A stretch of DNA of 64,000 nt from an uncultured Acidobacteriota bacterium (GTDB taxonomy: Bacteria; Acidobacteriota; Thermoanaerobaculia; Multivoradales; UBA5704): positions 1,632,001 through 1,696,000 of the forward strand of contig OY969474.1 of the NCBI GenBank assembly GCA_963700145.1, written 5' to 3'. Shown piece after piece: positions 6,452-59,637 of the stretch. A program made the translations under genes and the position numbers. The notes under the pieces are model-generated. The model saw only the letters and a program-made list of their open reading frames with translations. It was not told the DNA's origin and ran no database searches. Positions within the stretch are counted from its first letter, which is position 1, and each line of letters begins with the position of its first letter.

Positions 6452-6701
6452 TCAGCTCGCACCACTCCCGACTGCCTCCCGTAGCCGCTTCACCGCCGCC
6501 GCGTTGATCCCGCCGCGCGTAGGGCGCCCAGTCCCACCAGTCGAGCATCGCCTGGGTCTTGAAGTCGGTCCAGGCCCCCGGCTCTCGCTCCATGACGAAG
6601 ATCGCCGCGAACGGCTGCAAAGAGGGCGATCTCGAAGCACAGCAGCGGCGCACCTCAGGGATGCTCTCCACGGCGGCGCGGACGCGCTCGACGACGTCCA
6701 T
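6452..6701 (-). pseudogene. Probable decayed MntA-type nucleotidyltransferase antitoxin remnant
   Basis: MDVVERVRAAVESIPEVR... then FKTQAMLDWWDWAPYARR continues in another frame as INAAAVKRLREAV; GS/DxD core absent; TAAGAT 6 nt before ATG. Confidence 0.45.
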
Positions 6702-6710
6702 TGAGCGATC

Positions 6711-7625
6711 TTAGCCCGGATCTGCGACAGGGCTCGCAGGCGGGTGCGCGGCACGCAGGGCGAGGGCCACGCCGGCGGCGACGAGGGCGACGCCGGCGAG
6801 CATGCGGGGGGTGATCGGCTCGTCGAGCGCCACGGCGCCGATGACGACCGCCAGGACCGGCGCCGTGTAGGCGACGAGCGCGACGTGCGTCGCCGGCAGG
6901 TGCTGGAGGAGCCAGAAGTAGAGGCTGAACGCCACCGCCGAACCGACCAGCGCCAGATAGAGGAGCGCGGCGACCGACGGCCCGTCGAAAGTGACCGGCC
7001 GCCCCCGCTCTACCGCCGCCGCCAGCGCCCCCATGATCCCCCCGGTCAACAGCATCGGCACCGCGGTCAGCGACAGCGGATGGATCCCCGCCCCCCACCG
7101 CTTGATCGCGATCTGCGCAATCGCCGACACCAGCGGCGCCAGCAGCAGCACGAACGCAGCGATCTCCGCCCGCCGCCCCCCGAGCGGCTCGAAGTCCCCC
7201 GAAAACAGCACCGCGATCCCCACGAACCCCACCGCCACCCCCACCAAGCGCGCCGGCGTCAACCGCTCCCCCGGCACCGCAAAATGCGCCATCACCGCCA
7301 CCAACAGCGGAAACACCGCGAACAACACCGCCGCCAACCCCGAAGGCACCCACTGCTCGGCCCAGTACACGATCCCGTACGACCCGCAGAACGTGCACAG
7401 CGCATTCACCACCCACAACCGCCGCTCCACCGCCGTCCGACCCAGCGGCGCCCGAACCCCCCAAACCACCAACAGCAGCGCAACCCCCGCAATCGCAAAC
7501 CGCAGCGCCACCCCAGTAAACGGCGGCACGCCGCCAAGCCCAACGCGGATCGCAGCCCAAGTGGTGCCCCAGATGAGCGTGAGGAGGCCGAGAACCAGAT
7601 ACGACACAAGTCGCGTAGGAGGCAT
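6711..7625 (-). CDS. EamA/DMT family transporter
   Basis: IWGTTW, 10 hydrophobic segments, YLALVGS, LDEPIT. Confidence 0.9.
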   Translation of the reverse strand: MPPTRLVSYLVLGLLTLIWGTTWAAIRVGLGGVPPFTGVALRFAIAGVALLLVVWGVRAPLGRTAVERRLWVVNALCTFCGSYGIVYWAEQWVPSGLAAVLFAVFPLLVAVMAHFAVPGERLTPARLVGVAVGFVGIAVLFSGDFEPLGGRRAEIAAFVLLLAPLVSAIAQIAIKRWGAGIHPLSLTAVPMLLTGGIMGALAAAVERGRPVTFDGPSVAALLYLALVGSAVAFSLYFWLLQHLPATHVALVAYTAPVLAVVIGAVALDEPITPRMLAGVALVAAGVALALRAAHPPASPVADPG

Positions 7626-7637
7626 CTTTCCCCCGCC

Positions 7638-7664
7638 CAGATCCTTCGCTTCGCTCAGGATGAC
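7638..7664 (-). repeat. Short REP-like palindrome GTCATCCTGAGCGAAGCGAAGGATCTG
   Basis: atcct-tcgcttcgctc-aggat hairpin; matches a dispersed intergenic repeat type I recognise (reads VILSEAKDL). Confidence 0.65.
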
Positions 7665-7698
7665 GGTCTTACGGTTGTACCGTTGACTCGCCAACGGA

Positions 7699-7863
7699 GG
7701 GTCGCGCCGGGCGCTCTCCCCCGGGGAGCTCTCCGCAAGCGCCGGCAACGCCCTTCTCAGTCCACCACCGACCCCGCGCGCAGCGGAGCGCAGGCGCGCG
7801 CCCACCCCGAGCATTCCACAAAGCGCGCGCCGGTCCCCCGGGGGAGAGCGCCCGGCGCGACCC
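7699..7863 (-). repeat. Structured dispersed element, copy A (165 bp)
   Basis: Perfect 28-bp inverted repeat (7699-7726/7836-7863) enclosing ACCGGCGCGCGC...GGCGCGCGCCTGCGCTCCGCTGCGCG...GGGCGTTGCCGGCGCTTGCGGAGAGCT on the minus strand. Confidence 0.85.
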
Positions 7864-7894
7864 GGGCTCCGCGCGCTCGCCCCTCTCCTACCGC

Positions 7895-9214
7895 CTATGG
7901 ATAGATCTTGTGCAACATGCGCGGGTAAGGGATGGTCTCGCGCAGGTGATGGAGCCCGCCCATCCATGCCACGAAGCGCTCCAACCCCATCCCGAACCCA
8001 CTATGCGGAAACGCCCCATACCGCCGCACATCCAGATACCACTGAAACGCCTCGATCGGCAGATTGTGCTGGCGAATGCGCGCCAGCAGCAACTCGTGCT
8101 CGTGGATCCTCTGACTCCCCCCGATGATCTCCCCGTACCCCTCCGGCGCCAGCATGTCCAACCCCAGCACCACCTTCGCGTCCTCCGGGTCCGGCTGCAT
8201 GTAAAACGCCTTGAACGCCGCCGGGAACCGCGTCACCATCACCGGCCGGTCGTACCGCGCCGCCACCGCCGTCTCCTCGTCGGCGCCGAAATCGTCCCCC
8301 CACTGAATCGGGTTCCCCTCCGCCTGGAGCTGCGCGACCGCCTCCGTGTACGTGATCCGCGGAAACGGCGGCGCCACCCGCTCGAGCGGCGCCGGGTCCC
8401 GCTCCAGGACCTTCAGGTCCTCGCGGCAGCGGTCCAGCACGCGCGCCACCAGCTCGCAGACGAACTCCTCCGCCAGCGCGCACAGCCCCTCGAACTCCAG
8501 GAACGCCACCTCCGGCTCCACCATCCAGAACTCCATGAGGTGGCGCCGGGTCTTGCTCTTCTCGGCGCGGAACGTGGGCCCGAAGCAGTACACCTTGCCG
8601 AGCGCCGCCGCCGCCGGCTCCAGGTAGAGCTGCCCGGACTGCGAGAGGTACGCCTTCTCGCCGAAGTAGTCGGTCTCGAAGAGCGTCGAGGTCCCCTCGC
8701 AGGCCGCCGGCGTCAGGATCGGCGAGTCGATCAGCGTGAAGTCGCGGGTATGGAAGAAGTCGCGGATCGCCTGCGACACCTCGCTCCGGAGCTTGAGCGC
8801 GGCGCGCTGGCGGCTGGAGCGCAGCCAGAGGTGGCGGTGCTCCATGAGGAACGCCACCCCGTGCTCCTTGGGGCTGATCGGGAACTCCTCGGTGAGCTGC
8901 TCGACACGGAAGTCGGTGAGCTGGATCTCCACCCCGCCCGGCGCCCGGCGGTCCTCCTTGACGCGCCCGGAGAGCGCGACGGTCGATTCCTGCGTCGCCC
9001 GCTCGACCTCCGCCCACGCCGCCTCCGGCAGGTCCGCCCGGCTCGCCACCGCCTGCACCACCGCCCCGCCCAGCCGTACCTGGAGAAAGGCGATCTTCCC
9101 CGACGAGCGCTTCCCGTCGATCCACCCCCGCAGCGCCACCTCCTGCCCGGCGTGGGCGGGCAGCTCGCGGAAGGAGGGGGACGGGAGCGGCGGGGCGGGC
9201 GTGGTCGTCGCCAT
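7895..9214 (-). CDS. asnS: Asparagine--tRNA ligase
   Basis: YLSQSGQLY, FGPTFRAEKSKTRRHLMEFWM, GEIIGGSQR, PHSGFGMGLER. Confidence 0.97.
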   Translation of the reverse strand: MATTTPAPPLPSPSFRELPAHAGQEVALRGWIDGKRSSGKIAFLQVRLGGAVVQAVASRADLPEAAWAEVERATQESTVALSGRVKEDRRAPGGVEIQLTDFRVEQLTEEFPISPKEHGVAFLMEHRHLWLRSSRQRAALKLRSEVSQAIRDFFHTRDFTLIDSPILTPAACEGTSTLFETDYFGEKAYLSQSGQLYLEPAAAALGKVYCFGPTFRAEKSKTRRHLMEFWMVEPEVAFLEFEGLCALAEEFVCELVARVLDRCREDLKVLERDPAPLERVAPPFPRITYTEAVAQLQAEGNPIQWGDDFGADEETAVAARYDRPVMVTRFPAAFKAFYMQPDPEDAKVVLGLDMLAPEGYGEIIGGSQRIHEHELLLARIRQHNLPIEAFQWYLDVRRYGAFPHSGFGMGLERFVAWMGGLHHLRETIPYPRMLHKIYP

Positions 9215-9290
9215 GGGGCGCGGATTCTAGCAGCGGGTTTCACCCCGCCCCGGTGTACACTTCGGTAAGGAATCTCCAGGAGGGTAAGGA

Positions 9291-9548
9291 ATGCCGACGA
9301 CCACGCTCACCAGCAAGGGCCAAGTTACCTTGCCCAAGGAGATCCGCGACCGACTCGGACTGCGGCCCGGCCACCAGTTGAGCTTCGAGATCGAACCCGA
9401 CGGACGGCTCGTCGTGCGCCCCAAGAGCGTGGACCTCATGTCGCTCGGCGGGCTGCTGCGGCGCCGCCGGGCCAAGAAGAGCCTCCGCCAGATCGAGGAA
9501 GGGATCGGCCGCGGGGCGGCCGAGAGCTTCCGCGAGTCGGTCGAGTGA
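9291..9548 (+). CDS. AbrB/MazE-family antitoxin (VapB-like)
   Basis: TLTSKGQVTLPKEIRDRLGLRPG. Confidence 0.9.
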   Translation: MPTTTLTSKGQVTLPKEIRDRLGLRPGHQLSFEIEPDGRLVVRPKSVDLMSLGGLLRRRRAKKSLRQIEEGIGRGAAESFRESVE

Positions 9549-9943
9549 TCGCGCTCGACACCAACGTCCTCGTCCGTTTTCTCGTCGCCGACGATCCGGA
9601 GCAGTTCGAGGCGGCAAAGCGGAGCCTGGCCCGCCTCGGACCGGCGGAGGCGTCGGGCTTCGTTGCCGATGTCGTGCTCGCCGAGCTGGTTTGGGTGCTG
9701 CGCACCACCTACGAGCACTCGCGGGGCGAGATCCTACAGGCCCTGGAGGCCTTGGCCAGCGCCGACCATCTGACCTTCGAGGACGACGGCCGGCTGGCCC
9801 GCGCCCTGCGCGCCTTCGGCGAAGGGCGCGGCGACTTCGCTGACTACCTGATCCGCGAGCGCGCCGCGGCGACGGGCTGCTCGTCGGTCCTGACCTTCGA
9901 CAGGACGCTACAGAAAGAAAAGGGATTCTCGGCGCCTAGCTAG
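9545..9943 (+). CDS. vapC: VapC PIN-domain toxin
   Basis: LDTNVLVRFL, ELVWVL, DFADYLI, TFDR; GTGA overlap with the antitoxin. Confidence 0.9.
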   Translation: MIALDTNVLVRFLVADDPEQFEAAKRSLARLGPAEASGFVADVVLAELVWVLRTTYEHSRGEILQALEALASADHLTFEDDGRLARALRAFGEGRGDFADYLIRERAAATGCSSVLTFDRTLQKEKGFSAPS

Positions 9944-9959
9944 CGCCTTCGATGGCCCG

Positions 9960-10634
9960 CTAGTCGCTCTGCAGCCGCCGCAGCGCGTCCGCCGCGGCCT
10001 GCTGCTGCGCCACTTTCTTGCTCGACCCCTCGCCGCGGCCGGCGCGCTCGCCGGCGACCCAGCACTCGACGGCGAAGCGCTTGTCGTGGTCGGGGCCGGA
10101 TTCGCCGACCAGGCGGTAGTCGGGGAGGTCCCAGCCGCGCGCCTGCGCCAGCTCCTGGAGGGCGGTCTTGGAATCCGAGTGGAGGACCTCGGCGTCGGCG
10201 GCGAGCGCGCGGTCGAGCATCGGGCGGACGGCGGCGCGGGCGGGGTCGAGGCCGCCGTCGAGGTAGATCGCGCCGAAGAGGGCCTCCAGCGAGTCGGCGA
10301 GCAGCGAGTCCTTGCCGCGCCCGCCGCCCCGCTCCTCCCCCACCCCGAGCTTCAGCTCGTCGCTCACCCCGAGCGTAGCGGCCCAGGCGGCGAGGACCGG
10401 CTCGCTGACCAGGTGGTTCAGCCGCTTCGTGAGGCCGCCCTCGCGCTCGTCGGGATAGCGCTCGAAGAGCAGCTCGGCCGTGACGAGCTTGAGGACCGCG
10501 TCCCCCAGGAACTCCATGCGCTCCCAGTGCTCTTCGCTCCCCTGCTCGCTGGCGAGCGAGCGGTGGGTCAGCGCCCGCTCCAGCAGCTCGCGGCGGCGGA
10601 AGCGGTAGCCGAGGCTCTCCTCAACGCCGGCCAA
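9960..10634 (-). CDS. rnc: Ribonuclease III
   Basis: ALTHRS, ERMEFLGDAVL, EALFGAIYLDGG, C-terminal dsRBD. Confidence 0.95.
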   Translation of the reverse strand: MAGVEESLGYRFRRRELLERALTHRSLASEQGSEEHWERMEFLGDAVLKLVTAELLFERYPDEREGGLTKRLNHLVSEPVLAAWAATLGVSDELKLGVGEERGGGRGKDSLLADSLEALFGAIYLDGGLDPARAAVRPMLDRALAADAEVLHSDSKTALQELAQARGWDLPDYRLVGESGPDHDKRFAVECWVAGERAGRGEGSSKKVAQQQAAADALRRLQSD

Positions 10635-12435
10635 AGCGCCTTTCGAGGTCGGCGTCGGTCATCTGCAGGACGACGGGACGGCCGTGCGGGCAGGCGTACG
10701 GCTGCTCGGCGGCGAAGAGCTCGGCGACGAGGGCCTCCATCTCGGCCGGGGCGAGGGGGTGGTGCATCTTGACCGCCGCCTTGCAGGCGAGGCTCGCGGC
10801 GAGGGTCTCGACGAGGCGCCGGCGCAGGGGCGCGGCGCCGCCGCCGCCGTTGTCGCCGGCGTGCTCGGCACCCTCGTCGGCAGCAAGGGTGCGGAGGAGC
10901 GCCTCCCCCTCCTCGGCCGAGAGCGGGGCCGGGACGGCGGTCAGGGCCAGCGTGTCGCCCGAGAGAACGGCGAGGCCGAAGCCGCACTCCTCCAGCTCGG
11001 GCGCCAGCTCCTGGAGCCGCAGCCGCTCGGCCGGTGCCAGCTCCAGGAGGGCCGGGTGCAGGAGCGCCTGGCTGGCGGGGGACTCGGCGGCGAGGGCGCG
11101 GCGGAGGCGCTCGTAGAGGATGCGCTCGTGGGCGACGTGCTGGTCGATCACGTAAAGGCCGTCGGGGCCTTCGAGGAGGATGAGCGTCCCCTTGTACTGG
11201 CCGAGGAGGCGGAACGGGCGCGGCTCGCCGCCGCGGCCGGAGAGCGGGACCATCGGGCGGTCGAGGGGTGCGTAGGCGGCGGCTGCGAGACGCTGCGGGC
11301 TGCCTTCGGCAAGATCGCCGGCGAGGCGCCGCTCCCACGCTTCCGCCGTCGAGTACGGCCGGTCGCCCAACCCGCGCCAGGCGGGCGGCATCGACGGCGC
11401 CTCCCCGTGCGGCGCGCGCAGCGGCGCCGGCTCCTCGCCGCGCGCCCGCGCCAGGGCGGCGCGCAGGGTGAAGTGCAGGCGGTCGAGGAGACGAGGATCG
11501 CGGAAGCGCACCTCCGCCTTCTGCGGATGGACGTTGACGTCCACCTCCTCGGGCGGCAGCTCGAGGAAGAGGAAGAGCGCCGGGAACTCGTCGCTCCGCC
11601 ACTCCTCGCGCACGGCGCGGTAGAAGGCGGCGAGGACGGCGCGGTCGCGCAGGAGGCGCCGGTTGACGAAGACGAAGGCGCGGCGGGCGCCGGCGGTCTC
11701 GGGGGTGCCGACGAGGCCGGAGATCGTCTCGTGGAGCGCGCCGGTGGCGGCGAGGGCCGGTGAAGGGATCTCGACCAGGCGGCGCGCGAAGTCGTCGCCG
11801 AAGAGGGCGGCGATGCGCGGGCGGGGGTCGGCGGCGGGCAGAGCGTCGAGGAGCTCGCGGCCGTCGTGCGCGAGGCGCAGGCGGACGTCCGGGCGCGCGA
11901 GGGCGTAGCCCTGGACGACTTCCAGGCAGCGGCGCAGCTCGGTCGCCGGGCTCTTGAGGAACTTGCGCCGCGCCGGCACGTTCCAGAAGAGGGATGCGAC
12001 TTCGATGCGGGTGCCGCGCGGCGCGGGCGCGGGCTCGGCGGCGAGGACGCGGCCGCCGTCGATGCGCACGCGCTGGCCGTCACCCGGTTGCTCGGCGGTG
12101 AGGAGCTCGACGCGCGCCACGGCGGCGATGGCGCAGAGGGCCTCGCCGCGGAAGCCGAGGGTGGCCACGCGCTCGAGGTCGGCGAAGCCGGCGATTTTGC
12201 TGGTGGCGTGGCGGTCGAAGGCTAAGAGGGCGTCGTCGCGGCCCATGCCGGTGCCGTCGTCGGCGACGGCGATGCGGCGGCGGCCGCCGGCTTCTAATTC
12301 GATTCGGATGTCGGTGGCGCCGGCGTCGAGGGCGTTTTCGACTAGCTCCTTGACGACCGAGGCCGGGCGCTCCACGACCTCGCCGGCGGCGATCTGGGCT
12401 GCCACTCGGTCGGGGAGGATGTGGATGCGGGGCAT
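10621..12435 (-). CDS. mutL: DNA mismatch repair endonuclease MutL
   Basis: QIAAGEVVERPASVVKELVENALDAGA, GFRGEAL, DQHVAHERILYE, CPHGRP. Confidence 0.97.
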   Translation of the reverse strand: MPRIHILPDRVAAQIAAGEVVERPASVVKELVENALDAGATDIRIELEAGGRRRIAVADDGTGMGRDDALLAFDRHATSKIAGFADLERVATLGFRGEALCAIAAVARVELLTAEQPGDGQRVRIDGGRVLAAEPAPAPRGTRIEVASLFWNVPARRKFLKSPATELRRCLEVVQGYALARPDVRLRLAHDGRELLDALPAADPRPRIAALFGDDFARRLVEIPSPALAATGALHETISGLVGTPETAGARRAFVFVNRRLLRDRAVLAAFYRAVREEWRSDEFPALFLFLELPPEEVDVNVHPQKAEVRFRDPRLLDRLHFTLRAALARARGEEPAPLRAPHGEAPSMPPAWRGLGDRPYSTAEAWERRLAGDLAEGSPQRLAAAAYAPLDRPMVPLSGRGGEPRPFRLLGQYKGTLILLEGPDGLYVIDQHVAHERILYERLRRALAAESPASQALLHPALLELAPAERLRLQELAPELEECGFGLAVLSGDTLALTAVPAPLSAEEGEALLRTLAADEGAEHAGDNGGGGAAPLRRRLVETLAASLACKAAVKMHHPLAPAEMEALVAELFAAEQPYACPHGRPVVLQMTDADLERRFGRR

Positions 12436-12484
12436 GTTTGGCGATCTTACGGTAGGCCCCGCTGGACAAGCGGCCCCCCCGCCC

Positions 12485-12650
12485 AGCCCGGCGGCGGGCG
12501 CTCCCCGGAGGAACCGGCGCGCGCTTTGAAGACTGCCGAGGGGGGGCGCGCGCCTGCGCTTCGCTTTGCGCCTGGATCGATAGGGGACTGCAGTGGGGGT
12601 TGCCAGGCGCTCGCTCAGAGCTTCCTCCGGGGAGCGCCCGCCGCCGGGCT
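12485..12650 (+). repeat. Structured dispersed element, copy B (166 bp)
   Basis: Perfect 29-bp inverted repeat (12485-12513/12622-12650) enclosing ACCGGCGCGCGC...GGCGCGCGCCTGCGCTTCGCT...GGGGTTGCCAGGCGCTCGCTCAGAGCT. Confidence 0.85.
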
Positions 12651-12665
12651 TCCCCCCTGGACGAA

Positions 12666-13495
12666 CTACAAAGGCAGCAATGTGTAGGGGGGCTCGTGGA
12701 GGGTTGGCCTGCGCCTCGCTACTAGGAGAGTGTTGCCCCAGGCTCGGCGCCATAGGGGGACGGCGCGGAGTGTGGCGCGCAGGAGGCGGCGCGGGCCGCG
12801 GGGGTCGGGGCGATGCGGGAGGGTGCGGTGGTCGAGGATCTCGAGGTTGGCGGCGCGGAGGAAGCGAGCGAGGAAAAAGGACTGGGCGACGTGGACGGCG
12901 TCGGCGTCGGGGACGTAGCCTTCGGTCAGGACGCGGGGGCTCTCGACGAGGTCGAAGCGGTGGCGGCCGTCTAGGAGGGAGCGGAGCTGGCGGCCTAGGC
13001 GGCGGGCTGCGACCTCCAGGCGGCGGCGCGGAGGAAGGCTGGGGGGCATCTCGTAGGGGAGGTCCCAGGCCGAGCCGACGAGGAGGAGCAAGCCCCCGGG
13101 CCGCAGGACGCGGGCCGCTTCGAGCAGCGTCCTCCCCGGGTCGTGGAAGTGCTCTAAGGCGTAGGTTGAGAGGACGGCGTCGAAGCTGGCGTCGCGGAAG
13201 GGGAGGCGCTCGCCGTCGCCGCGGACGCGCGCTCCGGGGCGCCCCCACTCCGCCGCCAGGGCGAGGCCGGCGGTCGCGACATCCGAGCCGACGTAGCGGG
13301 TGCCGGGGGGCAGCCAGAGGGCGTTCTCGCAGGAGCCGCAGCCGAGGTCGAGGACCCGCTGGCCGGGCTCGAGGAAGCCGAGGAGGAGGCGCCGCTCGGG
13401 GGAGGCCTCGGGGTTGGCGGCGGCGGCCTGCGCGTAGTAGTCGCGGGAGGAGTCCCAGAAGGCGGCGAGCCGCCGGCGCTTTTCCGGGTCCGGCT

Positions 13496-13499
<4 letters not shown>
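12666..13499 (-). CDS. Class I SAM-dependent methyltransferase
   Basis: VLDLGCGS, LPFRDASFDAV, RVLRPGG; TTG start overlaps the ppdK stop. Confidence 0.85.
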
Positions 13500-16252
<2,753 letters not shown>

Positions 16253-22385: not shown

Positions 22386-22442
22386 GACGACTGCTACCTC
22401 TCGGTGAGGGCACCGGAGGAGCGCGCCGGGACGATTAGTCCG

Positions 22443-22633
22443 CGGGCGCTCCAGGACCGAATCGGGCGCTCGCCCACCGAAACGGGCGTCCCCGAACCGA
22501 AACGGGCGCTCGCGGACCGAAACGGGCGCTCCCGCACCGAAACCGGCGCTCCCCCACCGAAACGGGCGCTCGCCAACCGAAACGGGCGCTCCCCCACCGA
22601 AATGAGCGCTCCGGGGCCTAAATGGGCGGCTCG
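22443..22633. repeat. Tandem array of about 9 imperfect 20-bp units, consensus ACCGAAACGGGCGCTC(N4)
   Basis: accga recurs exactly every 20 nt from 22456 to 22596; degenerate units at both ends. Confidence 0.9.
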
Positions 22634-22709
22634 TCCCCGTCCTCGTCGCTCGGTTTACCTCCCGGCAGCGCGATTTCCGCCGCCGGGCCGCCCGCTAGAC
22701 TCCCTCGCG

Positions 22710-22848: not shown

Positions 22849-22852
22849 CTAG

Positions 22853-24122
22853 CAGGCCGCTGAGAAACGGCCTTCAACGGCGGGTGCGAGGCTGACAGCG
22901 ATCTGGGAGCGGGCGATGTCGCGTGCGCGGGTGGAAGGGGAGGGCAACAGGCGCCTTGTGGGCGCGTTTGAGCGCCGCTGGTTTTGCTGGGCAGGACCTT
23001 TTTGGGCTATGCCGGCACGAGCAGGCGACTTAATCGGAGCAGGTTGTACGCTGCGGCGGCGAGGCGGGCGGCCAGCTGCGTCCTCGCCACGCCTCGGACC
23101 CTGGTCCGGTGCAGCCCTGCGCAGGTCTTGAGCCAGCCGAAGATCGTCTCGATTCGCCGCCGTACGACCTGACTGATCCGGTAGCCGGGACGGCGCGTTG
23201 TTCGCCGGTCGATTGCCGAGCGCCTGCGCCGGTGGGCATTCTGGGTGACGTGGGGGGTGACGCCGAGCTCTCGGCAGGCAGCCACGAAGCCCTTGGTGTC
23301 GTAGCTCTTATCGGCGCCCACCGTCTTGCGCCGCGAGCCTTCGAGCCGCGCGAGCAGACCCAGAGCTTCGCGACGCTCGGCGAACCCATCGGCCTGGGCC
23401 ACCACGAAGTCCACCAACAATCCGTTGCGGTTCTCCATCAGAGCGTGGCCGGAAAACGAGAGCTTCGCCTCGTGCCCATCCCCCTTGCGGGCCAGGCGCG
23501 CTTCCGGGTCGGTCGTCGAGGCGTGCGTCTCGTTGCTCCGCTTCGTCCCCGTGAAATCGCTCCAGCCGTTGGCGTCTCCGCCCGGTGGCCCGTCCTTGGG
23601 CCGGAAGCTCTTCATCGACGCCCAGGCCTCGATCAGCGTCCCATCCACCGAGAAGTGCTCGCTCGACAGCAGCCGCTGCACGCTCGCCTCAGCCACGATC
23701 GCCGCCAAAAACCGCTCGGCCACCTCGTGCCGGATCAGCCGCTCCCGGTTGCGTGAAAACGTGCTCGCGTCAAACGACGGCTCGTCGAGCTCCAGATCCA
23801 AAAACCAGCGAAACAGCAGGTTGTACTCGAGCTGCTCGCAAAACTGCCGGTCGCTCCGCACCGAAAACAGCGCGATCAGCAGCTGCGCCTTGAGCAGCCG
23901 CTCCGGCGGCACCGACGGCCGCCCCGTCTCGGCGTACATCACCGCAAACACCTCACTCAACTGCCCGAGAGCCCGGTCGGCCAGCCCCTTGATCCGCCGG
24001 ATCGGATGCGCCGCCGGAATCCGCTCCTCCAACGACCCCACCATCAACAACGTCCTCTGCTCGCGCGCTTTCCCTCGCATGGCCTGCAAGGGTAGCGCGA
24101 ACCGGGGTTTTTCAGCAGCCTG
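22853..24122 (-). mobile_element. IS5-family insertion sequence, copy 1 (1270 bp)
   Basis: TIRs CAGGCTGCTGAAAAA / CAGGCCGCTGAGAAA (13/15); CTAG on both sides (22849-22852, 24123-24126). Confidence 0.95.
23007..24080 (-). CDS. IS5-family DDE transposase
   Basis: GRPSVPPERLLKA, YNLLFRWF, HFSVDGTLIEAWAS, GADKSYD, RRRIETIFGWLK, AAYNLLR. Confidence 0.95.
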   Translation of the reverse strand: MRGKAREQRTLLMVGSLEERIPAAHPIRRIKGLADRALGQLSEVFAVMYAETGRPSVPPERLLKAQLLIALFSVRSDRQFCEQLEYNLLFRWFLDLELDEPSFDASTFSRNRERLIRHEVAERFLAAIVAEASVQRLLSSEHFSVDGTLIEAWASMKSFRPKDGPPGGDANGWSDFTGTKRSNETHASTTDPEARLARKGDGHEAKLSFSGHALMENRNGLLVDFVVAQADGFAERREALGLLARLEGSRRKTVGADKSYDTKGFVAACRELGVTPHVTQNAHRRRRSAIDRRTTRRPGYRISQVVRRRIETIFGWLKTCAGLHRTRVRGVARTQLAARLAAAAYNLLRLSRLLVPA

Positions 24123-25070
24123 CTAGCGGAAGTACCCGTTGACGTCGATCACGAGGTGGACCGTTCCAGGGTCTGCGGCGAGGGAGGCCCGGACGCTCAG
24201 CATGCCGCTGCCGATCAGCGCGGCGATGCCGTTGTTTGCCCGCGTCTGGCCGGCGCTGAAGTTGATCGTCGAGGTGAGGGGCTCGACCGTCCCCGCCGCG
24301 AAGACTCGCAGGAACCCAGGCGCGGTCGGGCCGACGACGGTGATGTTGAACGAGACGGCGCGGGCGTCGGCGGGGATTCCGCACTGTCCGCCGAGCAGGA
24401 AGTCGCGGAGCTCGTTCGCGCCGAGAGCGGGCCCGCCGTGGGGACCGTCGGCCAACCGCGTGTCGACAACCCGGCACGGCAGCAGCGTGTAGAAGTCGCT
24501 CGGGGAAAGCGCCGCCGACGGGTCGACGCGAAAATAGGCTGCGCCGCCGCCGAACGGGCTGAGCTTGATCCGCATCGTGATCTCATGTGGCCCCGGCGAG
24601 AGAGAGAACAGACCCTGACTGACGCGCGGATCGGCGATGCACGGCTCGGGGTCGTCGCCACAGTCGGCGCCGAGGTCCCGCGGTGTCGAGGTGGCGCCGA
24701 GCTGGGCGCCGAAGTCGAAGATCTCGAACTGGTCGCCCAGCAAGAACGCGTCGGTCACCGTCAAGGTCGCCCCTCCGGCCGGAGCCGTGAACGTCCACGG
24801 CGGATCGTCGGCGAAAACGGAGTTCCCGCCCGAGCTCGGCACGCAGCCGCCCCCTTGGCAGCCCATCGCAAAGCTTCCCGGGCCGGCGAAACTGAACTCG
24901 TTCCACGGCCCGCCAATCGGTACGGGTCCCGGCGGCGGGCCCGTGCCCGGGGAAGCAGCCGGCCCTCCGACCTCGCGGCTCGCGACACCGTTGCCCTCTT
25001 GGGCAGAAATCTCCTGAGCGAGAAAAACCGCGACGCAGGCGGCCGAGAAGATCGCTCTCCTGCTGACCAT
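24123..25070 (-). CDS. Secreted protein with C-terminal PCRVVDTR...DVNGYF beta domain
   Basis: Signal peptide; Cys-containing N domain (TVTDAF..GDQFEIFD); C domain FYTLLPCRVVDTR..STINF..RANN..IDVNGYF. Confidence 0.8.
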   Translation of the reverse strand: MVSRRAIFSAACVAVFLAQEISAQEGNGVASREVGGPAASPGTGPPPGPVPIGGPWNEFSFAGPGSFAMGCQGGGCVPSSGGNSVFADDPPWTFTAPAGGATLTVTDAFLLGDQFEIFDFGAQLGATSTPRDLGADCGDDPEPCIADPRVSQGLFSLSPGPHEITMRIKLSPFGGGAAYFRVDPSAALSPSDFYTLLPCRVVDTRLADGPHGGPALGANELRDFLLGGQCGIPADARAVSFNITVVGPTAPGFLRVFAAGTVEPLTSTINFSAGQTRANNGIAALIGSGMLSVRASLAADPGTVHLVIDVNGYFR

Positions 25071-35004: not shown

Positions 35005-36563
35005 GACGGGCCGGAGGCGACGCGGGCCAGATGGCGGAAGGCGGACGGCAGCTCTTCGGCCAGGTCGCCGGCCGAAAGCCCGCGCGTCCCCTGCCGCTCG
35101 GCGGCGAGGTCCCCGGCCAGGCCGTGGACGTAGGCGCCGGCCAGGGCCGCGGCGAAGGGATCGAGTCCCTGGGCCAACAGGGCGGCGAGGAGGCCGGTGA
35201 GCACGTCGCCGGTGCCGCCGGTGGCCATCCCGGGGTTGCCGGTCGGGTTGATCCAGACCTCGCCGTCGGGGCTCGCCACCAGCGTCCGCCGCCCCTTGAG
35301 GAGGACGACCGCGCCGGTCTCGCGCGCCAGGCGCTCGGCCGCCCCTACACGGTCGGCCTGCACCTCGGCGGCGGTGAGCCCGAGGAGGCGGCCGGCCTCG
35401 CCCGGGTGCGGGGTGAGGATGGCCGGGCTCGCGCGCTCCGCGAGCTCCCCGGCGCGCCCGGCGAAAGCGTTCAGACCGTCGGCGTCGACCACCACCGGCA
35501 CCGGCGATTCGCGCACGAGACGGCGCACCGCCTCGGCCGTCTCGGGGTCGGTGCCGAGCCCGGGCCCCAGAGCGAGCGCCCCCTTCCCCGCCATCGCCGC
35601 ATGCACCCGCTCGACCGCGGCGCCGGCGAGGGCGCCCGCGGCGTTCGCCGGCAGCGGTACCGTCATCGACTCGGCCGAGCCCGCGGCGACACTCGGGAGG
35701 ATCGGCTCCGGCACCGCCACCGTGACCAGCCCCGCCCCGCCCCGCACGGCGCCGCGCGCGGCCAGAACCGCTGCGCCGGCCTTCCCCCGCGAGCCGGCGA
35801 CCAACAAGGCATGGCCGCAGTCCCCCTTGTGGGCGCCGGCGGGACGCGGCGGCAGGAGGGCGGCGGCCTCCTCCTCGGTCAGCAGGTGGAGCGCGCCGGG
35901 CGCCGCCTCGACCAGCCAGGGCGGGATGCCGAGGTCGGTCACCACCAGCTCCCCCACCGAGTCCGCCGCCGGCGGCAGGACGTGCGCCACTTTGGGGGCG
36001 GCGAAGGTCACCGTCAGGTCGGCGCGCAGGTGCGGCTCCCAGGCCTCGGCGCGGCTCCCCGCGAGGCCGCTCGGGAGGTCCACGGCCACGCGCGGCCGCG
36101 GCAGCGCGTTGAGGGCGGCGACGAGGGCCGCGAAGTGCCCTTCGAGCGGCCGCGCCAGGCCAGTGCCGAAGAGGGCGTCGACGACGAGGTCGGCCGCCGC
36201 GGCGGCGGCGAGGTGCGGGGCGAGGTCGCCGTCGGGCGGCAGCTCGACGAGCGGCAGCTCGAGGGCGCGGACGATGCCGAGCTGCACCGCCGCGTCGCCG
36301 CCGAGCGCCCGCCCACCGGCCGCTAGCACGGTCTCGACCTGATAGCCGCGCACCGCCAGGTGGCGCGCCACGGCCAGGCCGTCGCCGCCGTTGTTGCCCG
36401 GGCCGCAGAAGACGACCGCGGAGGCGGCGCGCGGGTAGACCTCGCCGATCGCCTCGACGACGCCGATCGCGGCGTTCTCCATGAGCACCAGCCCCGGCAC
36501 TCCCAGCTCGTCGATGGCCGCGCGGTCGAGCGCGCGCATCGCCTCGGCGGTCAGGACCCGCAC
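35001..36563 (-). CDS. nnr: Bifunctional NAD(P)H-hydrate epimerase/dehydratase
   Basis: LMENA, GPGNNGGDG, DALFGTG, HKG, DADGLN, TPHPGE, GGTGDVL. Confidence 0.95.
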   Translation of the reverse strand: MRVLTAEAMRALDRAAIDELGVPGLVLMENAAIGVVEAIGEVYPRAASAVVFCGPGNNGGDGLAVARHLAVRGYQVETVLAAGGRALGGDAAVQLGIVRALELPLVELPPDGDLAPHLAAAAAADLVVDALFGTGLARPLEGHFAALVAALNALPRPRVAVDLPSGLAGSRAEAWEPHLRADLTVTFAAPKVAHVLPPAADSVGELVVTDLGIPPWLVEAAPGALHLLTEEEAAALLPPRPAGAHKGDCGHALLVAGSRGKAGAAVLAARGAVRGGAGLVTVAVPEPILPSVAAGSAESMTVPLPANAAGALAGAAVERVHAAMAGKGALALGPGLGTDPETAEAVRRLVRESPVPVVVDADGLNAFAGRAGELAERASPAILTPHPGEAGRLLGLTAAEVQADRVGAAERLARETGAVVLLKGRRTLVASPDGEVWINPTGNPGMATGGTGDVLTGLLAALLAQGLDPFAAALAGAYVHGLAGDLAAERQGTRGLSAGDLAEELPSAFRHLARVASGPS

Positions 36564-36585
36564 GGTCAGGACCCGCGGAGATGTC

Positions 36586-36622
36586 CCCCTCTCCCATGTG
36601 GGAGAGGGGCCAGGGGTGAGGG
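36586..36622. repeat. REP-like hairpin CCCCTCTCCC-atgt-GGGAGAGGGG with GGGGTGAGGG tail
   Basis: 10-bp perfect stem; matches a common dispersed repeat shape (CCCTCACCCC..CCCTCTCCC..GGGAGAGGG). Confidence 0.7.
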
Positions 36623-36674
36623 AGATGGGATCAACGCAGGAAAGGTGGAAGCCTCTTGGATGCTCCCGTCAGGT

Positions 36675-37364
36675 TCAGCGGCCGCAGCCAACGAGAGGGT
36701 CCCTCTTAACCAGTCGATCCCAGGCCTCAAGGAGGCCCCGGGTCCGGGGGCAGCCCAGATCGCCGGCGGCCATCTCGGCGGCGAGGCGGCGGAGGTCGGC
36801 GGGGGTGTCCACGTCGGCGGCATGAGGCAGGAGCTCGACGGCGAGGCCGAGCTCGCGGCAGCGGTCGAGGGTGGCGGCGAGGACGCCGGCGGTGGACCAG
36901 GGGATCTCGCTGAAGAGGCGCGGGTCGAGGGCGGCGGCGCGCAGGGCGATGAGGTAGTAGCCGCCGTCTTCGGCGGGGCCGAGGACGACTTCGGCGCCGG
37001 CTTCTAGGCGCTCGAAGGCGCGGTGGACGAGGGGCAGGGGGAGGGTGGGGTGGTCGCTGCCGAGGGCGGCGACGAGGAGGGCCTCGCGGGCGGCGGCGGA
37101 GAGGGCGCGGTGGAGGCGGGCGCCTAGGTCATGGCCTTCCTGGCGGAGGCCGGGGACGGGGCCGGCGGGGAGGGGGTCACCGGGGTCGAGGTCCCAGGCT
37201 AGGCGGAGGTCGAAGTCGCCGGCGCTGAGGCGTTCCAGGAGATCGGCGAGGAAGGCGGCGTGGAGGTCGGCGGCTTCCTCGGGGCTAAGATCGCCGATTA
37301 GGCGGGTTTTGACTCGGCCGGGGCGGGCTGGCTTGGTGAAGAGAAGAAGGCGGCGGCCGGGCAC
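36675..37364 (-). CDS. DUF2064 / TIGR04282-family glycosyltransferase-like protein
   Basis: K.A.PGRVKTRL, QEG.DLG.R, GSDHP, LGPAEDGGYYL, DVDTPADL. Confidence 0.88.
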   Translation of the reverse strand: MPGRRLLLFTKPARPGRVKTRLIGDLSPEEAADLHAAFLADLLERLSAGDFDLRLAWDLDPGDPLPAGPVPGLRQEGHDLGARLHRALSAAAREALLVAALGSDHPTLPLPLVHRAFERLEAGAEVVLGPAEDGGYYLIALRAAALDPRLFSEIPWSTAGVLAATLDRCRELGLAVELLPHAADVDTPADLRRLAAEMAAGDLGCPRTRGLLEAWDRLVKRDPLVGCGR

Positions 37365-37393
37365 ACGCGGATTGTATATGGGGAGCCGTGGAG

Positions 37394-37556
37394 GGTCGGT
37401 TGGGGGCCTCCCGGCGGGAACCGGCGCGCGCAACAGATGACTGCCGGATCTGAGGCGCGCGCCTGCGCTTCGCTGCGCGCGGAATCGGGCGGTGGGCCGC
37501 AAAGGGTGTTGCCAGCGCTTGCTCAGAGCTTCCCGCCGGGAGGCCCCCAACCGACC
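37394..37556 (+). repeat. Structured dispersed element, copy C (163 bp)
   Basis: Perfect 27-bp inverted repeat (37394-37420/37530-37556) enclosing ACCGGCGCGCGC...GGCGCGCGCCTGCGCTTCGCTGCGCG...GGGTGTTGCCAGCGCTTGCTCAGAGCT. Confidence 0.85.
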
Positions 37557-37610
37557 GGGAGCGGCCGTGGCCGCCCTACCCAGAAAAAAGAAGCAAGAAA
37601 AGGATACGGA

Positions 37611-38414
37611 TTGCCCCTCCTGACTCTGCTCACCGACTTCGGGACGGCGGACTACTACGTCGCGGCGGTCAAGGGGGTGGTGCTGCGGCTGGCGCCGGGG
37701 ACGGTGATCGTGGATGTTGGGCACGAGGTGGCGCCTGGGGACGTGGAGGCGGGCGCTTTCCTCTGGTCGGCCGCCGTGCGTTGGTTTCCAGAGGGGACGG
37801 TGCACCTGGCGGTCGTGGATCCCGGCGTTGGGAGCGAACGGCGGATCCTGGCGGCGCGGGGGGAGCGGGGATTCCTGCTGGCCCCGGACAATGGGTTGCT
37901 CACGCCGTTTCTGGACGAGCCCGGGTTCGAGGTGCGGGTGGTGGAGCGGGAGGACCTGTTTCTTCACGGGCCCGGCACCACGTTCCATGGGAGGGACAGG
38001 TTCGCGCCGGTGGCGGCGTGGGTGCTGCGGGGGGAGGCTTTCGAGGCGCTGGGGCCGGTTGTGGGGGATGCGGTGCGGCTGCCGGGCGAGCGGCCGCGGC
38101 GGGAGGGGGGGCGGCTCACCGGACGGGTGATTCACGTCGATCGGTTCGGGAACCTGGTGACCGACATCCCTTCCGACTGGCTGCCGCCGGGGCCCTGCCG
38201 CGTCGCGGTCGGCGGCCACGCCACCGAGCGCCGCGCCACGCATTACGCGGAGGTCCCGGCCGGCGAGGCTGCCCTCCTTCCCGGGTCTCTCGGCACCCTG
38301 GAGCTGGCGGTCAACGGCGGGCGGCTGGCCGATCTCTGGCGGGTCGGGCGGGGCGCTGGGGTGACCATCGACTGCGGGGTTGGTACGGATCTTTCAGAGA
38401 TTTCGGGCGGCTAG
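37611..38414 (+). CDS. SAM hydroxide adenosyltransferase (DUF62; chlorinase/fluorinase family)
   Basis: TLLTDFG, VVDPGVGSER, APDNG, TFHGRD, DRFGN; TTG start. Confidence 0.92.
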   Translation: MPLLTLLTDFGTADYYVAAVKGVVLRLAPGTVIVDVGHEVAPGDVEAGAFLWSAAVRWFPEGTVHLAVVDPGVGSERRILAARGERGFLLAPDNGLLTPFLDEPGFEVRVVEREDLFLHGPGTTFHGRDRFAPVAAWVLRGEAFEALGPVVGDAVRLPGERPRREGGRLTGRVIHVDRFGNLVTDIPSDWLPPGPCRVAVGGHATERRATHYAEVPAGEAALLPGSLGTLELAVNGGRLADLWRVGRGAGVTIDCGVGTDLSEISGG

Positions 38415-59580: not shown

Positions 59581-59637
59581 GCAGGGGTCTCCTTCGGGTC
59601 TCGGGTTCGGGCCCGAGATGCTACCTCAACGGCCTAG

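What the first reader, a model, noticed from the sequence alone, without database searches (positions are those of the whole stretch)
12050..13200. Mirror-image halo around copy B (plus strand) reaching into mutL
Seen: copy B is on the plus strand, and here the plus strand is C-poor (12781-12840 G36:C12). The flanking minus-strand genes carry clustered A-ending codons that are rare elsewhere in the window: mutL start GAG CTA GTC GAA, CGA ATC GAA TTA GAA, CTC TTA GCC; methyltransferase GCC TTA GAG, CTC CTA GAC, CGC CTA GGC. These equal C>T on the plus strand. Gene direction is the same as at copy A but the skew is reversed, so it follows the element rather than transcription or replichore (inference). 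The element sits immediately upstream of the putative mutL -10 box.
Basis: partly seen in the sequence, partly recalled or inferred. Interest (0 to 1): 0.8.

Follow-up and report, generated by a model that had tools for sequence, protein, structure and literature searches.

The report
Strand-specific mutation halo around a repeat
A small hairpin-forming DNA repeat in a soil bacterium is surrounded, at most of its copies, by about a thousand bases on each side in which one DNA strand keeps losing its cytosines, a local one-strand mutation zone that I found described nowhere for bacteria.

Summary
The window lies in a 5.46 Mb, 72% G+C Thermoanaerobaculia genome with no replichore-scale GC skew. 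That genome holds 40 copies of a ~165-190 nt element: a conserved core inside a copy-specific, perfectly paired stem.

- **Size and sign.** GC skew on the element's strand reaches +0.26 and fades by about 1.2-1.4 kb on both sides. Of 86 one-kb windows with |skew|>0.2, 60 lie within 1.5 kb of a copy, and all 60 carry the sign of the element's strand.
- **Independent of gene direction.** The shift is largest at third codon positions.
- **Substitution spectrum.** Substitutions polarised with three outgroups show that only cytosines of the element's strand mutate faster, C>T and C>G at 3-4 times background. The complementary changes stay at background.
- **Timing.** At mutL, relatives without the element have no skew, and the youngest copy has no halo.
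- **Other genomes.** One other family in the order shows the halo. Three genomes with homologous elements do not, which suggests a host factor.

The mechanism is inferred: the element's strand is repeatedly left single-stranded. This scan noted a similar halo in Herbaspirillum.

The parts
12470..12655 (+). Copy B of the repeat (family F1). The ~30-bp outer stem pairs about 12483-12512 with about 12621-12650. The conserved core is 12501-12634.
   Evidence: BLAST and repeat finder; fold; covariance model R1, 137.5 bits.
10900..12469 (+). Upstream halo of copy B: plus strand poor in C, covering the 5' two thirds of mutL.
   Evidence: 300-nt skew profile of L001; codon counts; polarised substitutions, C>G 10 against G>C 1 and C>T 9 against G>A 3 in 11400-12436.
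12656..13600 (+). Downstream halo of copy B, covering the methyltransferase gene.
   Evidence: polarised substitutions, C>G 15 against G>C 1 in 12770-13500.
10621..12435 (-). mutL (604 aa); its start codon lies 35 nt from the element.
   Evidence: Pfam HATPase_c_3, DNA_mis_repair, MutL_C.
12666..13499 (-). Class I SAM methyltransferase gene; its stop codon lies 11 nt from the element.
   Evidence: Pfam Methyltransf_11.
7701..7864 (-). Copy A of the repeat, in the opposite orientation.
   Evidence: R1 119.8 bits; present in G004, G003 and G002 as well.
6950..9000 (-). Halo of copy A: minus strand poor in C, over the EamA transporter gene (6711-7625) and the 3' part of a class II aminoacyl-tRNA synthetase gene (7895-9214).
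   Evidence: GC skew -0.26 (7001-8000) and -0.12 (8001-9000); codon counts; Pfam.
37404..37546 (+). Third copy (C) of the repeat in the window.
   Evidence: R1 128.2 bits.
36500..38000 (+). Halo of copy C.
   Evidence: GC skew +0.25 at 37001-38000; outlier region 36501-38000; flank skews 0.30 and 0.21.

Best explanation
Shown: older copies of a structured, mobile DNA repeat are each the centre of a zone of about 1-1.4 kb on either side. In that zone, cytosines of the strand carrying the element's G-rich orientation are replaced by T and by G at 3-4 times the background rate. Cytosines of the other strand, and all other bases, change at background. The zone ignores gene boundaries, gene direction and position on the chromosome. 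It builds up after insertion and fades after loss.

Inferred: the element makes its own strand persist as single-stranded DNA over this distance, and the simplest route is a strand-specific nick or gap. The opposite strand would be opened at the element, widened in both directions, and then resynthesised. Exposed cytosines deaminate, which gives C>T. Or they are lost and bypassed, or leave C-C mispairs that mismatch repair does not see, which gives C>G.

Homologous elements in three other genomes have no halo. So a host or element-linked activity present in this genus, and in at least one other lineage, is probably needed.
For: - **Meta-profile of 40 copies.** Skew is +0.26 at -375 and +0.23 at +375, and about 0 beyond +/-1.4 kb, with the same sign on both sides.
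- **Outlier windows.** 60 of 86 windows with |skew|>0.2 lie within 1.5 kb of a copy, where 2.1% of all windows do. The sign agrees in 60 of 60. 28 of 40 copies have both flanks above 0.1.
- **Codon positions.** Third-position skew on the element's strand rises from -0.13 to +0.33 in same-strand genes and from +0.13 to +0.46-0.53 in opposite-strand genes. Positions 1 and 2 shift by only about 0.1. The third-position excess is 0.4-0.57 at 100-500 nt and declines roughly linearly.
- **Polarised substitutions.** G000 branch, 16 of the 40 copies, third positions, at 20-400 / 400-800 / 800-1500 / 1500-3000 nt:
  - C>T per C: .057 / .033 / .022 / .014.
  - C>G per C: .050 / .053 / .028 / .018.
  - G>A per G: .013 / .013 / .009 / .015.
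  - G>C per G: .020 / .014 / .014 / .018.
  - So only the rate out of top-strand C rises, and G>C does not fall as selection for G would predict.
- **All positions, 20-1000 nt.** C>T 113/6673 against G>A 76/8542 (OR 1.92, p=1e-5). C>G 96/6673 against G>C 65/8542 (OR 1.90, p=6e-5). At 1500-3000 nt both odds ratios are 1.00.
- **Timing.** At copy B the skew at aligned columns is 0.20 in G000 and 0.16 in G004, which keeps only a remnant of the element. It is 0.01, -0.03 and -0.04 in G001, G003 and G002, which lack it. The G000-only copy at 1050725 has -0.01.
- **Control.** A 37-nt repeat (63 copies) has |skew| of at most 0.04.
- **Replication in other lineages.** Another family of the order, G158: 12 of 14 flanks positive, mean 0.106. 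Six G002-only copies: mean 0.073.
- **DNA-level structure.** Pairing is almost purely Watson-Crick (G-U about 1% of cells) and 30 of 32 pairs covary.
- **Signature.** C>T together with C>G is the known outcome of uracil and abasic sites in single-stranded DNA (abstract of PMC11230362, seen in the listing).
Against: - No direct evidence of single-stranded DNA, nicks or any enzyme exists; the step from signature to mechanism is inference.
- 5 of 40 copies have no halo, among them 2720701, which is shared with G004 and G001.
- Homologous elements show no halo in G085 (18 copies, mean 0.005), G119 (11, 0.024) and G189 (4, -0.009). So the element alone is not sufficient.
- Relatives that lack the element still show a mean skew of 0.09 where G000 has 0.20 (35 locus-genome pairs). 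At 1935546 and 2321912 it is as much as 0.22-0.26. I read this as past loss, which is not proven.
- Bacteria are not known to have a Rev1-like dCMP transferase (from my own knowledge), so the route to C>G is open.
- Substitutions, not mutations, were counted. Parsimony with 81-93% identical genomes can mis-polarise some sites.
- Halo strength does not correlate with stem length (rho 0.19, p=0.24).
Confidence: 0.5

Rival explanations
1. Replication-coupled gaps. The hairpin or G-rich core stalls synthesis on the element's strand when that strand is the lagging-strand template. This leaves gaps the size of Okazaki fragments, in which the template cytosines deaminate.
For: The scale (about 1 kb) and the roughly linear decline with distance fit fragment-sized gaps. 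The strong DNA-level hairpin fits too. The earlier scan note on Herbaspirillum favoured a replication reading.
Against: - Copies of opposite orientation a few kb apart both have full halos: A and B here, and 2318228 with 2321912.
- Orientation shows no replichore pattern: 14+:7- and 11+:8- either side of the origin suggested by gene-strand bias.
- A stall predicts a gap on one side of the block, but both sides are affected equally (mean 0.20 and 0.19).
- The origin is only weakly inferred, so this is not excluded.
Confidence: 0.13
2. Transcription or R-loops. The element carries a promoter or yields an RNA, so that its strand is the displaced non-template strand. G-rich RNA would then stabilise R-loops in a self-reinforcing way.
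For: C loss on the non-template strand is the classical transcription-linked asymmetry. The T excess reaches further downstream than upstream: T3 is 0.04-0.10 out to +700, against -400 upstream.
Against: - The halo is as strong upstream as downstream.
- It overrides the flanking genes whatever their direction.
- Pairing is Watson-Crick only, unlike typical structured RNAs.
- There is no Rfam match, and no sigma-70-like site at copy B.
Confidence: 0.12
3. Targeted enzymatic deamination. A host cytosine deaminase is recruited to the element and edits one strand, loosely like leaky repeat-induced point mutation in fungi or antibody hypermutation.
For: C-specific, strand-coordinated C>T plus C>G. 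Lineage-specific occurrence despite homologous elements elsewhere.
Against: - No marked sequence context: C>T rate by 5' base is A .025, T .024, C .017, G .012.
- The element's own core stays conserved.
- No deaminase was sought or found.
Confidence: 0.1
4. Fixation bias. Selection or biased gene conversion favours G over C on the element's strand, for example for protein binding, G-quadruplexes or avoidance of Rho.
For: The skew arises with little loss of G+C. Substitutions cannot by themselves separate mutation from fixation.
Against: - G>C is not reduced near the element (.020, .014, .014 against .018).
- C>T, which works against the genome's 95% GC3, rises fourfold.
- The total third-position rate rises from 3.5% to 6.6%.
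- No oriented hexamer stands out (max |z| 4.7 among 392, sd 1.94).
Confidence: 0.08
5. Insertion preference. The element inserts, in a fixed orientation, into DNA that was already skewed.
For: Some relatives without the element carry skew at the orthologous place (0.22-0.26 at 1935546 and 2321912).
Against: - At mutL the three relatives without the element have skew 0.01, -0.03 and -0.04.
- The G000-only copy at 1050725 sits in unskewed DNA.
- The asymmetry continues on the terminal G000 branch.
- The halo is centred on the element.
- Losses that leave an arm remnant are documented.
Confidence: 0.04

Closest known systems
Replication-associated strand asymmetry (replichore GC and AT skew)
   Same: G over C and T over A on one strand. 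It is usually ascribed to cytosine deamination in exposed single strands.
   Different: Here the asymmetry is local (+/-1 kb) and centred on a 165-190 nt repeat. Its sign is set by the repeat's orientation, and its amplitude is far higher (third-position skew excess up to 0.57). The genome has no replichore skew. C>G is as prominent as C>T.
Strand-coordinated mutation clusters in single-stranded DNA (APOBEC-type signature, kataegis) in yeast and human cells
   Same: Only cytosines of one strand are hit, and the outcome is C>T and C>G (abstract of PMC11230362, listing).
   Different: This is an evolutionary footprint in a bacterium, recurring at fixed places. No TC-type context appears, and no deaminase is known here.
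Leakage of repeat-induced point mutation into flanks of repeats in fungi (for example Leptosphaeria maculans, PMC3105345, search listing only)
   Same: Point mutation centred on repeated DNA spreads about a kilobase into neighbouring genes.
   Different: As I recall it, RIP gives C>T transitions only, degrades the repeats themselves and is eukaryotic. Here C>G is equal to C>T, the repeat core is conserved, and one strand is chosen by the element's orientation.
REPINs and REP elements mobilised by RAYT transposases; MITEs
   Same: Small, intergenic, hairpin-forming, mobile repeats with gains and losses between close relatives.
   Different: - No Y1 transposase gene in the genome.
- The stem differs from copy to copy while a 110-nt core is conserved.
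- No shared terminal inverted repeats.
- My searches found no description of halos for these elements.
   Same: One-strand cytosine loss over 300-600 bases flanking every copy of a structured repeat, genes included.
   Different: It concerns another phylum and another repeat, and I did not see its sequence or test it. Here the halo is wider. It is absent from young copies and from some lineages, and it has a measured spectrum.

Membership tests
Replication-associated strand asymmetry | Sign is constant over a replichore and switches at origin and terminus. | tested here: not met
   No replichore-scale skew. Halos span +/-1.4 kb. Opposite signs 5 kb apart at copies A and B.
Replication-associated strand asymmetry | G>C and T>A on the same strand. 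| tested here: met
   (T3 rises from 0.02 to 0.06-0.15 on the G-rich strand).
Transcription-associated mutational asymmetry | Asymmetry follows the direction of the transcribed gene. | tested here: not met
   Same shift in genes on either strand. Flanking-gene orientation classes are 16, 11, 7 and 6 of 40.
REPIN/RAYT system | A cognate RAYT (Y1 transposase, PF01797) gene in the genome. | tested here: not met
   0 matches in G000 (one contig, 95% complete). The same search hit 6 of 14 control genomes.
REPIN/RAYT system | An inverted pair of short conserved REP sequences forming the hairpin. | tested here: not met
   The stem arms differ between copies (3 or more Watson-Crick pair types at 11 of 42 pairs). 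The conserved part is the 110-nt core.
MITE | Terminal inverted repeats shared by all copies, and target-site duplications. | tested here: inconclusive
   No shared terminal repeats. No duplication is evident at two filled-against-empty comparisons, but both are blurred by remnants.
AID/APOBEC-type enzymatic deamination | Strand-coordinated C>T and C>G at cytosines. | tested here: met
AID/APOBEC-type enzymatic deamination | A preferred dinucleotide context, and a deaminase gene. | tested here: inconclusive
   Only weak 5'-base differences, computed on G000 neighbours. No deaminase search was made.
Repeat-induced point mutation | C>T transitions only, degrading the repeated copies themselves. 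| tested here: not met
   C>G equals C>T. The core is conserved across 31-53 copies and several families of the order.
Known RNA families (Rfam 15) | A match at the gathering score. | tested here: not met
   0 matches in the whole window. Only E 1.5 and 8.2 chance-level hits beside copy B.

The most novel reading that the evidence does not exclude
Bacteria of this genus have an activity that recognises a folded DNA element and repeatedly opens or edits one defined strand for about a kilobase on both sides. That would be a natural, site-anchored, strand-specific local mutator, comparable in outcome to engineered nickase- or deaminase-based targeted mutators. The element family would then be its address label. 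Genes next to copies, here the start of mutL, would evolve several times faster at cytosines of one strand.
Probability: 0.2. Interest if true: 0.95.

Novelty: categorically new. Interest (0 to 1): 0.86.

Why it matters
If the halo is mutational, as the spectrum indicates, then mutation rate and spectrum in a bacterial chromosome can be set locally and strand-specifically by a small non-coding element. Neither replication nor transcription would be setting them.

- **A general signal.** This would add a third source of strand asymmetry. It explains most of the extreme GC-skew spikes in this genome (60 of 86 windows).
- **A readable trace.** It gives a sequence-only read-out of where DNA is habitually single-stranded or resynthesised.
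- **A handle on the mechanism.** Homologous elements exist with and without halos. That contrast should allow the responsible factor to be found by comparative genomics, and it may point to a natural tool for targeted mutagenesis.
- **A practical caution.** Genes beside such repeats violate the assumptions of codon-usage, horizontal-transfer and molecular-clock analyses.

Tried and rejected
- **RNA families and signals.** Rfam at gathering score and at E up to 10 beside copy B gave nothing. No tRNA or tmRNA. The sigma-70 and terminator scan of 12300-12800 gave 0 sites.
- **Further copies.** An nhmmer profile of the 40 copies found only one more partial copy.
- **RNA evidence.** No RNA holder is listed for 6500-13600. 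Laying four DNA runs gave short metagenome contigs of related strains, 512 differences were not shown, and polarisation was impossible, so I did not use them as evidence.
- **Mutation clustering.** Tandem and clustered substitutions are no more frequent near elements than far from them: 12 adjacent pairs of 356 against 13 of 442.
- **Structure against halo.** Stem length or fold energy does not predict halo strength (rho 0.19, p=0.24; rho -0.27, p=0.09).
- **Oriented motif.** The hexamer search in halos found no single motif.
- **Replichore test.** It rests on a weak gene-strand signal.
- **Other skew spikes.** Those not near F1 copies were inspected. Three carry a second repeat family (F2), others lie in very long genes or beside other repeats, and the rest was not resolved.
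- **Literature.** Six searches were read as listings and abstract starts only. None describes element-centred halos in bacteria. No paper was opened, and supplements are closed, so this is not proof of absence.

**Rows dropped before counts:**
- 47 BLAST intervals were reduced to 40 copies by removing hits under 100 nt and overlaps.
- Orthologue analyses used 16 of the 40 copies, chosen for clustering and for lying in or near the window.
- In one search, 39 of the 50 model hits were used. The 11 dropped were secondary hits in multi-copy loci L112, L113, L125, L126 and L135.
Full report
**Check of the observation.**

Bases 12781-12840 hold 36 G and 12 C, and 12050-13200 has a GC skew of +0.19. 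In this genome, 1-kb windows have a standard deviation of 0.066, and only 86 of 10910 exceed |0.2|.

The flanking genes are mutL (10621-12435) and a class I methyltransferase (12666-13499), both on the minus strand. Within about 700 nt of the element the codon counts are as follows:
- A-ending codons make up 30 of 457. In minus-strand genes of the window more than 2 kb from any copy they make up 263 of 13315 (p=4e-8).
- CTA/TTA/CGA are 11 of 457 against 25 of 13315 (p=1.4e-8).
- C-ending codons rise to 70% (background 53%), and G-ending codons fall to 21% (background 42%).

At copy A the element lies on the other strand and the genes run the same way. There the picture is mirrored: T-ending 34 of 439, G-ending 68%, C-ending 24%.

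**The element.**

Copy B (12470-12655, +), copy A (7701-7864, -) and a third copy (37404-37546, +) belong to a family of 40 copies in the window's genome. The genome is 5.46 Mb in one contig, with 72% G+C and no replichore-scale GC skew.

Each copy has a conserved core of about 110 nt, enclosed by a stem of about 30 bp. The stem is perfectly paired but differs from copy to copy. Three properties characterise the element:
- **Pairing.** It is almost purely Watson-Crick: 1583 Watson-Crick cells, 30 G-T (24 of them at one pair) and 5 A-C. Across 53 copies from seven genomes, 30 of 32 model pairs change on both sides. There are 315 such cells against 12 one-sided changes, and 93.3% of cells are paired against 73.5% in shuffles. 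This looks like a structure kept at the DNA level rather than a typical RNA.
- **Database and transposase checks.** No Rfam family matches, and the genome has no Y1 transposase.
- **Mobility within the genus.** Of 16 copies examined, three are in G000 alone, one is in all five genomes, and the rest are in between. Losses leave part of one arm.

I confirm its anatomy, but that note as listed does not mention any halo.

**The halo is genome-wide and follows the element.**

I oriented all 40 copies alike. GC skew on the element's strand is then +0.26 at -375 and +0.23 at +375, and returns to about 0 by +/-1.2-1.4 kb. G+C content hardly changes.

Of the 86 windows with |skew|>0.2, 60 lie within 1.5 kb of a copy, where 2.1% of all windows do. 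In 60 of 60 the sign is that of the element's strand. Above 0.25 the counts are 28 of 33 and 28 of 28.

Both flanks exceed 0.1 at 28 of 40 copies, and five copies have no halo. Copies are intergenic (39 of 40) and stand in every orientation relative to their neighbours: 16, 11, 7 and 6 of 40 in the four classes. They show no replichore pattern.

A 37-nt hairpin repeat (63 copies away from the other families) has no halo.

**Where in the genes.**

I used a crude gene caller based on GC3 periodicity (4085 genes, 83% coding). Third-position skew on the element's strand then moves as follows:
- from -0.13 to +0.33 in genes on the element's strand;
- from +0.13 to +0.46-0.53 in genes on the other strand;
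- first and second positions move by only about 0.1;
- non-coding DNA moves by about 0.2.

After correcting for gene orientation, the third-position excess is 0.4-0.57 at 100-500 nt. It declines roughly linearly to zero at about -1400 and +1000. T at third positions rises from 0.02 to 0.06-0.15, and further downstream than upstream. This is what a pressure acting on all sites looks like once purifying selection has filtered it.

**Direction of change.**

I fetched the orthologous DNA of four congeners for 16 of the 40 copies (93, 91, about 85 and 81% identity). I counted changes unique to G000 where its sister G004 and all available outgroups agree.

At third positions, at 20-400 / 400-800 / 800-1500 / 1500-3000 nt:
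- C>T per cytosine of the element's strand: .057 / .033 / .022 / .014.
- C>G per cytosine: .050 / .053 / .028 / .018.
- G>A per guanine: .013 / .013 / .009 / .015.
- G>C per guanine: .020 / .014 / .014 / .018.

Over all positions within 1 kb, the odds ratios are 1.92 (p=1e-5) for C>T against G>A and 1.90 (p=6e-5) for C>G against G>C. At 1.5-3 kb both are 1.00.

G>T is also raised in the first 400 nt (.018 against .001). That rests on 20 events at third positions, and its test over 1 kb is not significant (p=0.13).

So only the rate out of cytosines of one strand is raised, three- to fourfold. Nothing is lowered. Selection or biased conversion for G would lower G>C, so this argues for mutation rather than fixation bias. 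At copy B alone the counts are C>G 25 against 2 and C>T 14 against 8. The 5'-neighbour effect is weak, and there is no excess of tandem changes.

**Cause or consequence.**

At the mutL locus the skew at aligned columns is 0.20 in G000 and 0.16 in G004, which keeps only a remnant of one arm. It is 0.01, -0.03 and -0.04 in the three relatives whose spacer holds other DNA. Two further observations point the same way:
- The copy found in G000 alone at 1050725 has no halo (-0.01).
- A copy shared only with G004, and 89% identical to copy A, has 0.05.

Overall, relatives with the element show 0.20 where G000 has 0.23 (23 pairs). Relatives without it show 0.09 where G000 has 0.20 (35 pairs).

The evidence is not clean. 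At 1935546 and 2321912, relatives without the element still show 0.22-0.26. I ascribe this to loss, which I cannot prove. Copy 2720701 is shared by three genomes yet has no halo. Relatives are not independent samples.

**Beyond this genome.**

A second family of about 205 nt (20 copies) has the same architecture, and I noticed a short motif it shares with the core of the first. It shows halos of the same polarity at six copies and none at the copies most similar to the query copy. Its meta-profile reaches 0.15 upstream.

By BLAST the first family is confined to the genus: 5 of 61 genomes of the taxonomic family. A covariance model finds full-length matches in 12 of 151 genomes of the class, spread over families f5 (5 of 5), f8 (5 of 23) and f10 (1 of 1). 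The halos of those matches differ by genome:

| Genome | Group | Copies | Mean flank skew | Flanks positive |
|---|---|---|---|---|
| G158 | f8 | 7 | 0.106 | 12 of 14 |
| G002-only copies | same genus | 6 | 0.073 | 11 of 12 |
| G085 | f5 | 18 | 0.005 | 18 of 33 |
| G119 | f5 | 11 | 0.024 | 15 of 22 |
| G189 | f5 | 4 | -0.009 | 3 of 7 |

The copies of G119 are old (mean pairwise identity 0.55) and the stems of G085 are long. So the element alone is not sufficient, and a lineage-specific factor is likely.

This scan has also noted a one-strand cytosine-loss halo beside a hairpin-rich repeat in Herbaspirillum (e1-5276203). I did not test that case.

**Mechanism.**

The signature has these features:
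- it hits cytosines of one strand only;
- it gives C>T plus C>G;
- it has the same sign on both sides;
- it declines over about 1 kb;
- it is independent of gene direction and of chromosome position.

This is what damage to a persistently single-stranded strand would give. A double-strand break with resection would give opposite signs on the two sides. Transcription would give one side only. Replication stalling should depend on fork direction.

I therefore favour a strand-specific nick or gap in the opposite strand, anchored at the element, widened both ways and refilled. Uracil would give C>T, and abasic-site bypass or unrepaired C-C mispairs would give C>G. Every step from signature to mechanism is inference, and I put it at about one half.

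**Comparison with what is known.**

The composition resembles replication skew. The spectrum resembles single-strand deamination clusters of eukaryotes. The geometry resembles leakage of repeat-induced point mutation in fungi. The element resembles REPINs or MITEs. Each of these fails at least one defining feature tested here (see the membership table).

Six literature searches, read as listings only, gave no description of element-centred halos in bacteria.

**Limits.**
- The gene calls are crude.
- Parsimony may mis-polarise some sites.
- Only 16 of 40 copies have orthologue data.
- No expression, nick or single-strand data exist for this organism.
- The factor that distinguishes genomes with halos from those without is unknown.

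Noticed in passing
window 36572-36706: A 135-bp segment lies inverted in G004 and G002 relative to this genome, while both flanks stay collinear. It could be an invertible segment or a palindrome-mediated flip.
   Followed up: no
window 22405-22664: About 12 tandem 20-nt units with a conserved ACCGAAACG-type end (family D1). They resemble the phased 21-bp array of scan note e1-4446259 elsewhere in this genome.
   Followed up: no
window 22849-24126 and 59634-60911: Two 1278-nt copies, 100% identical and in inverted orientation. The ORF at 23007-24089 is a DDE transposase (DUF772 + DDE_Tnp_1), so this is an ordinary, recently active insertion sequence.
   Followed up: partly
window 7626-7667 and 81 other places in the genome: A 37-nt hairpin repeat with 82 copies at up to 2 mismatches, one directly beside copy A. 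It has no skew halo and served as the control.
   Followed up: yes
G000 4223200-4223430, 4624761-4624952, 5152144-5152327 and 17 more: A second repeat family (F2, about 205 nt, 20 copies) has a long outer stem. Six copies carry halos of the same polarity.
   Followed up: partly
whole genome G000: There is no replichore-scale GC skew: the cumulative skew has no V shape. Gene-strand bias weakly suggests an origin near 2.8-2.9 Mb.
   Followed up: partly
L003 (G001), spacer between mutL and the methyltransferase gene: G001 carries a two-gene insert of about 640 nt where G000 has copy B. By eye it reads like an antitoxin plus PIN-type toxin pair; I did not test this. G002 has a different insert of about 800 nt.
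   Followed up: no
G000 1050635-1050982 and 1624455-1624797 against relatives: An ACCGT-type motif beside the right arm is already present at an empty site in G001, which suggests a target preference. Losses of the element leave the outer part of the left arm.
   Followed up: partly
L125, L126 (G177): In G177 the homologous elements stand in clusters of four or five copies about 200 nt apart, in mixed orientation. I left them out of the halo count.
   Followed up: no
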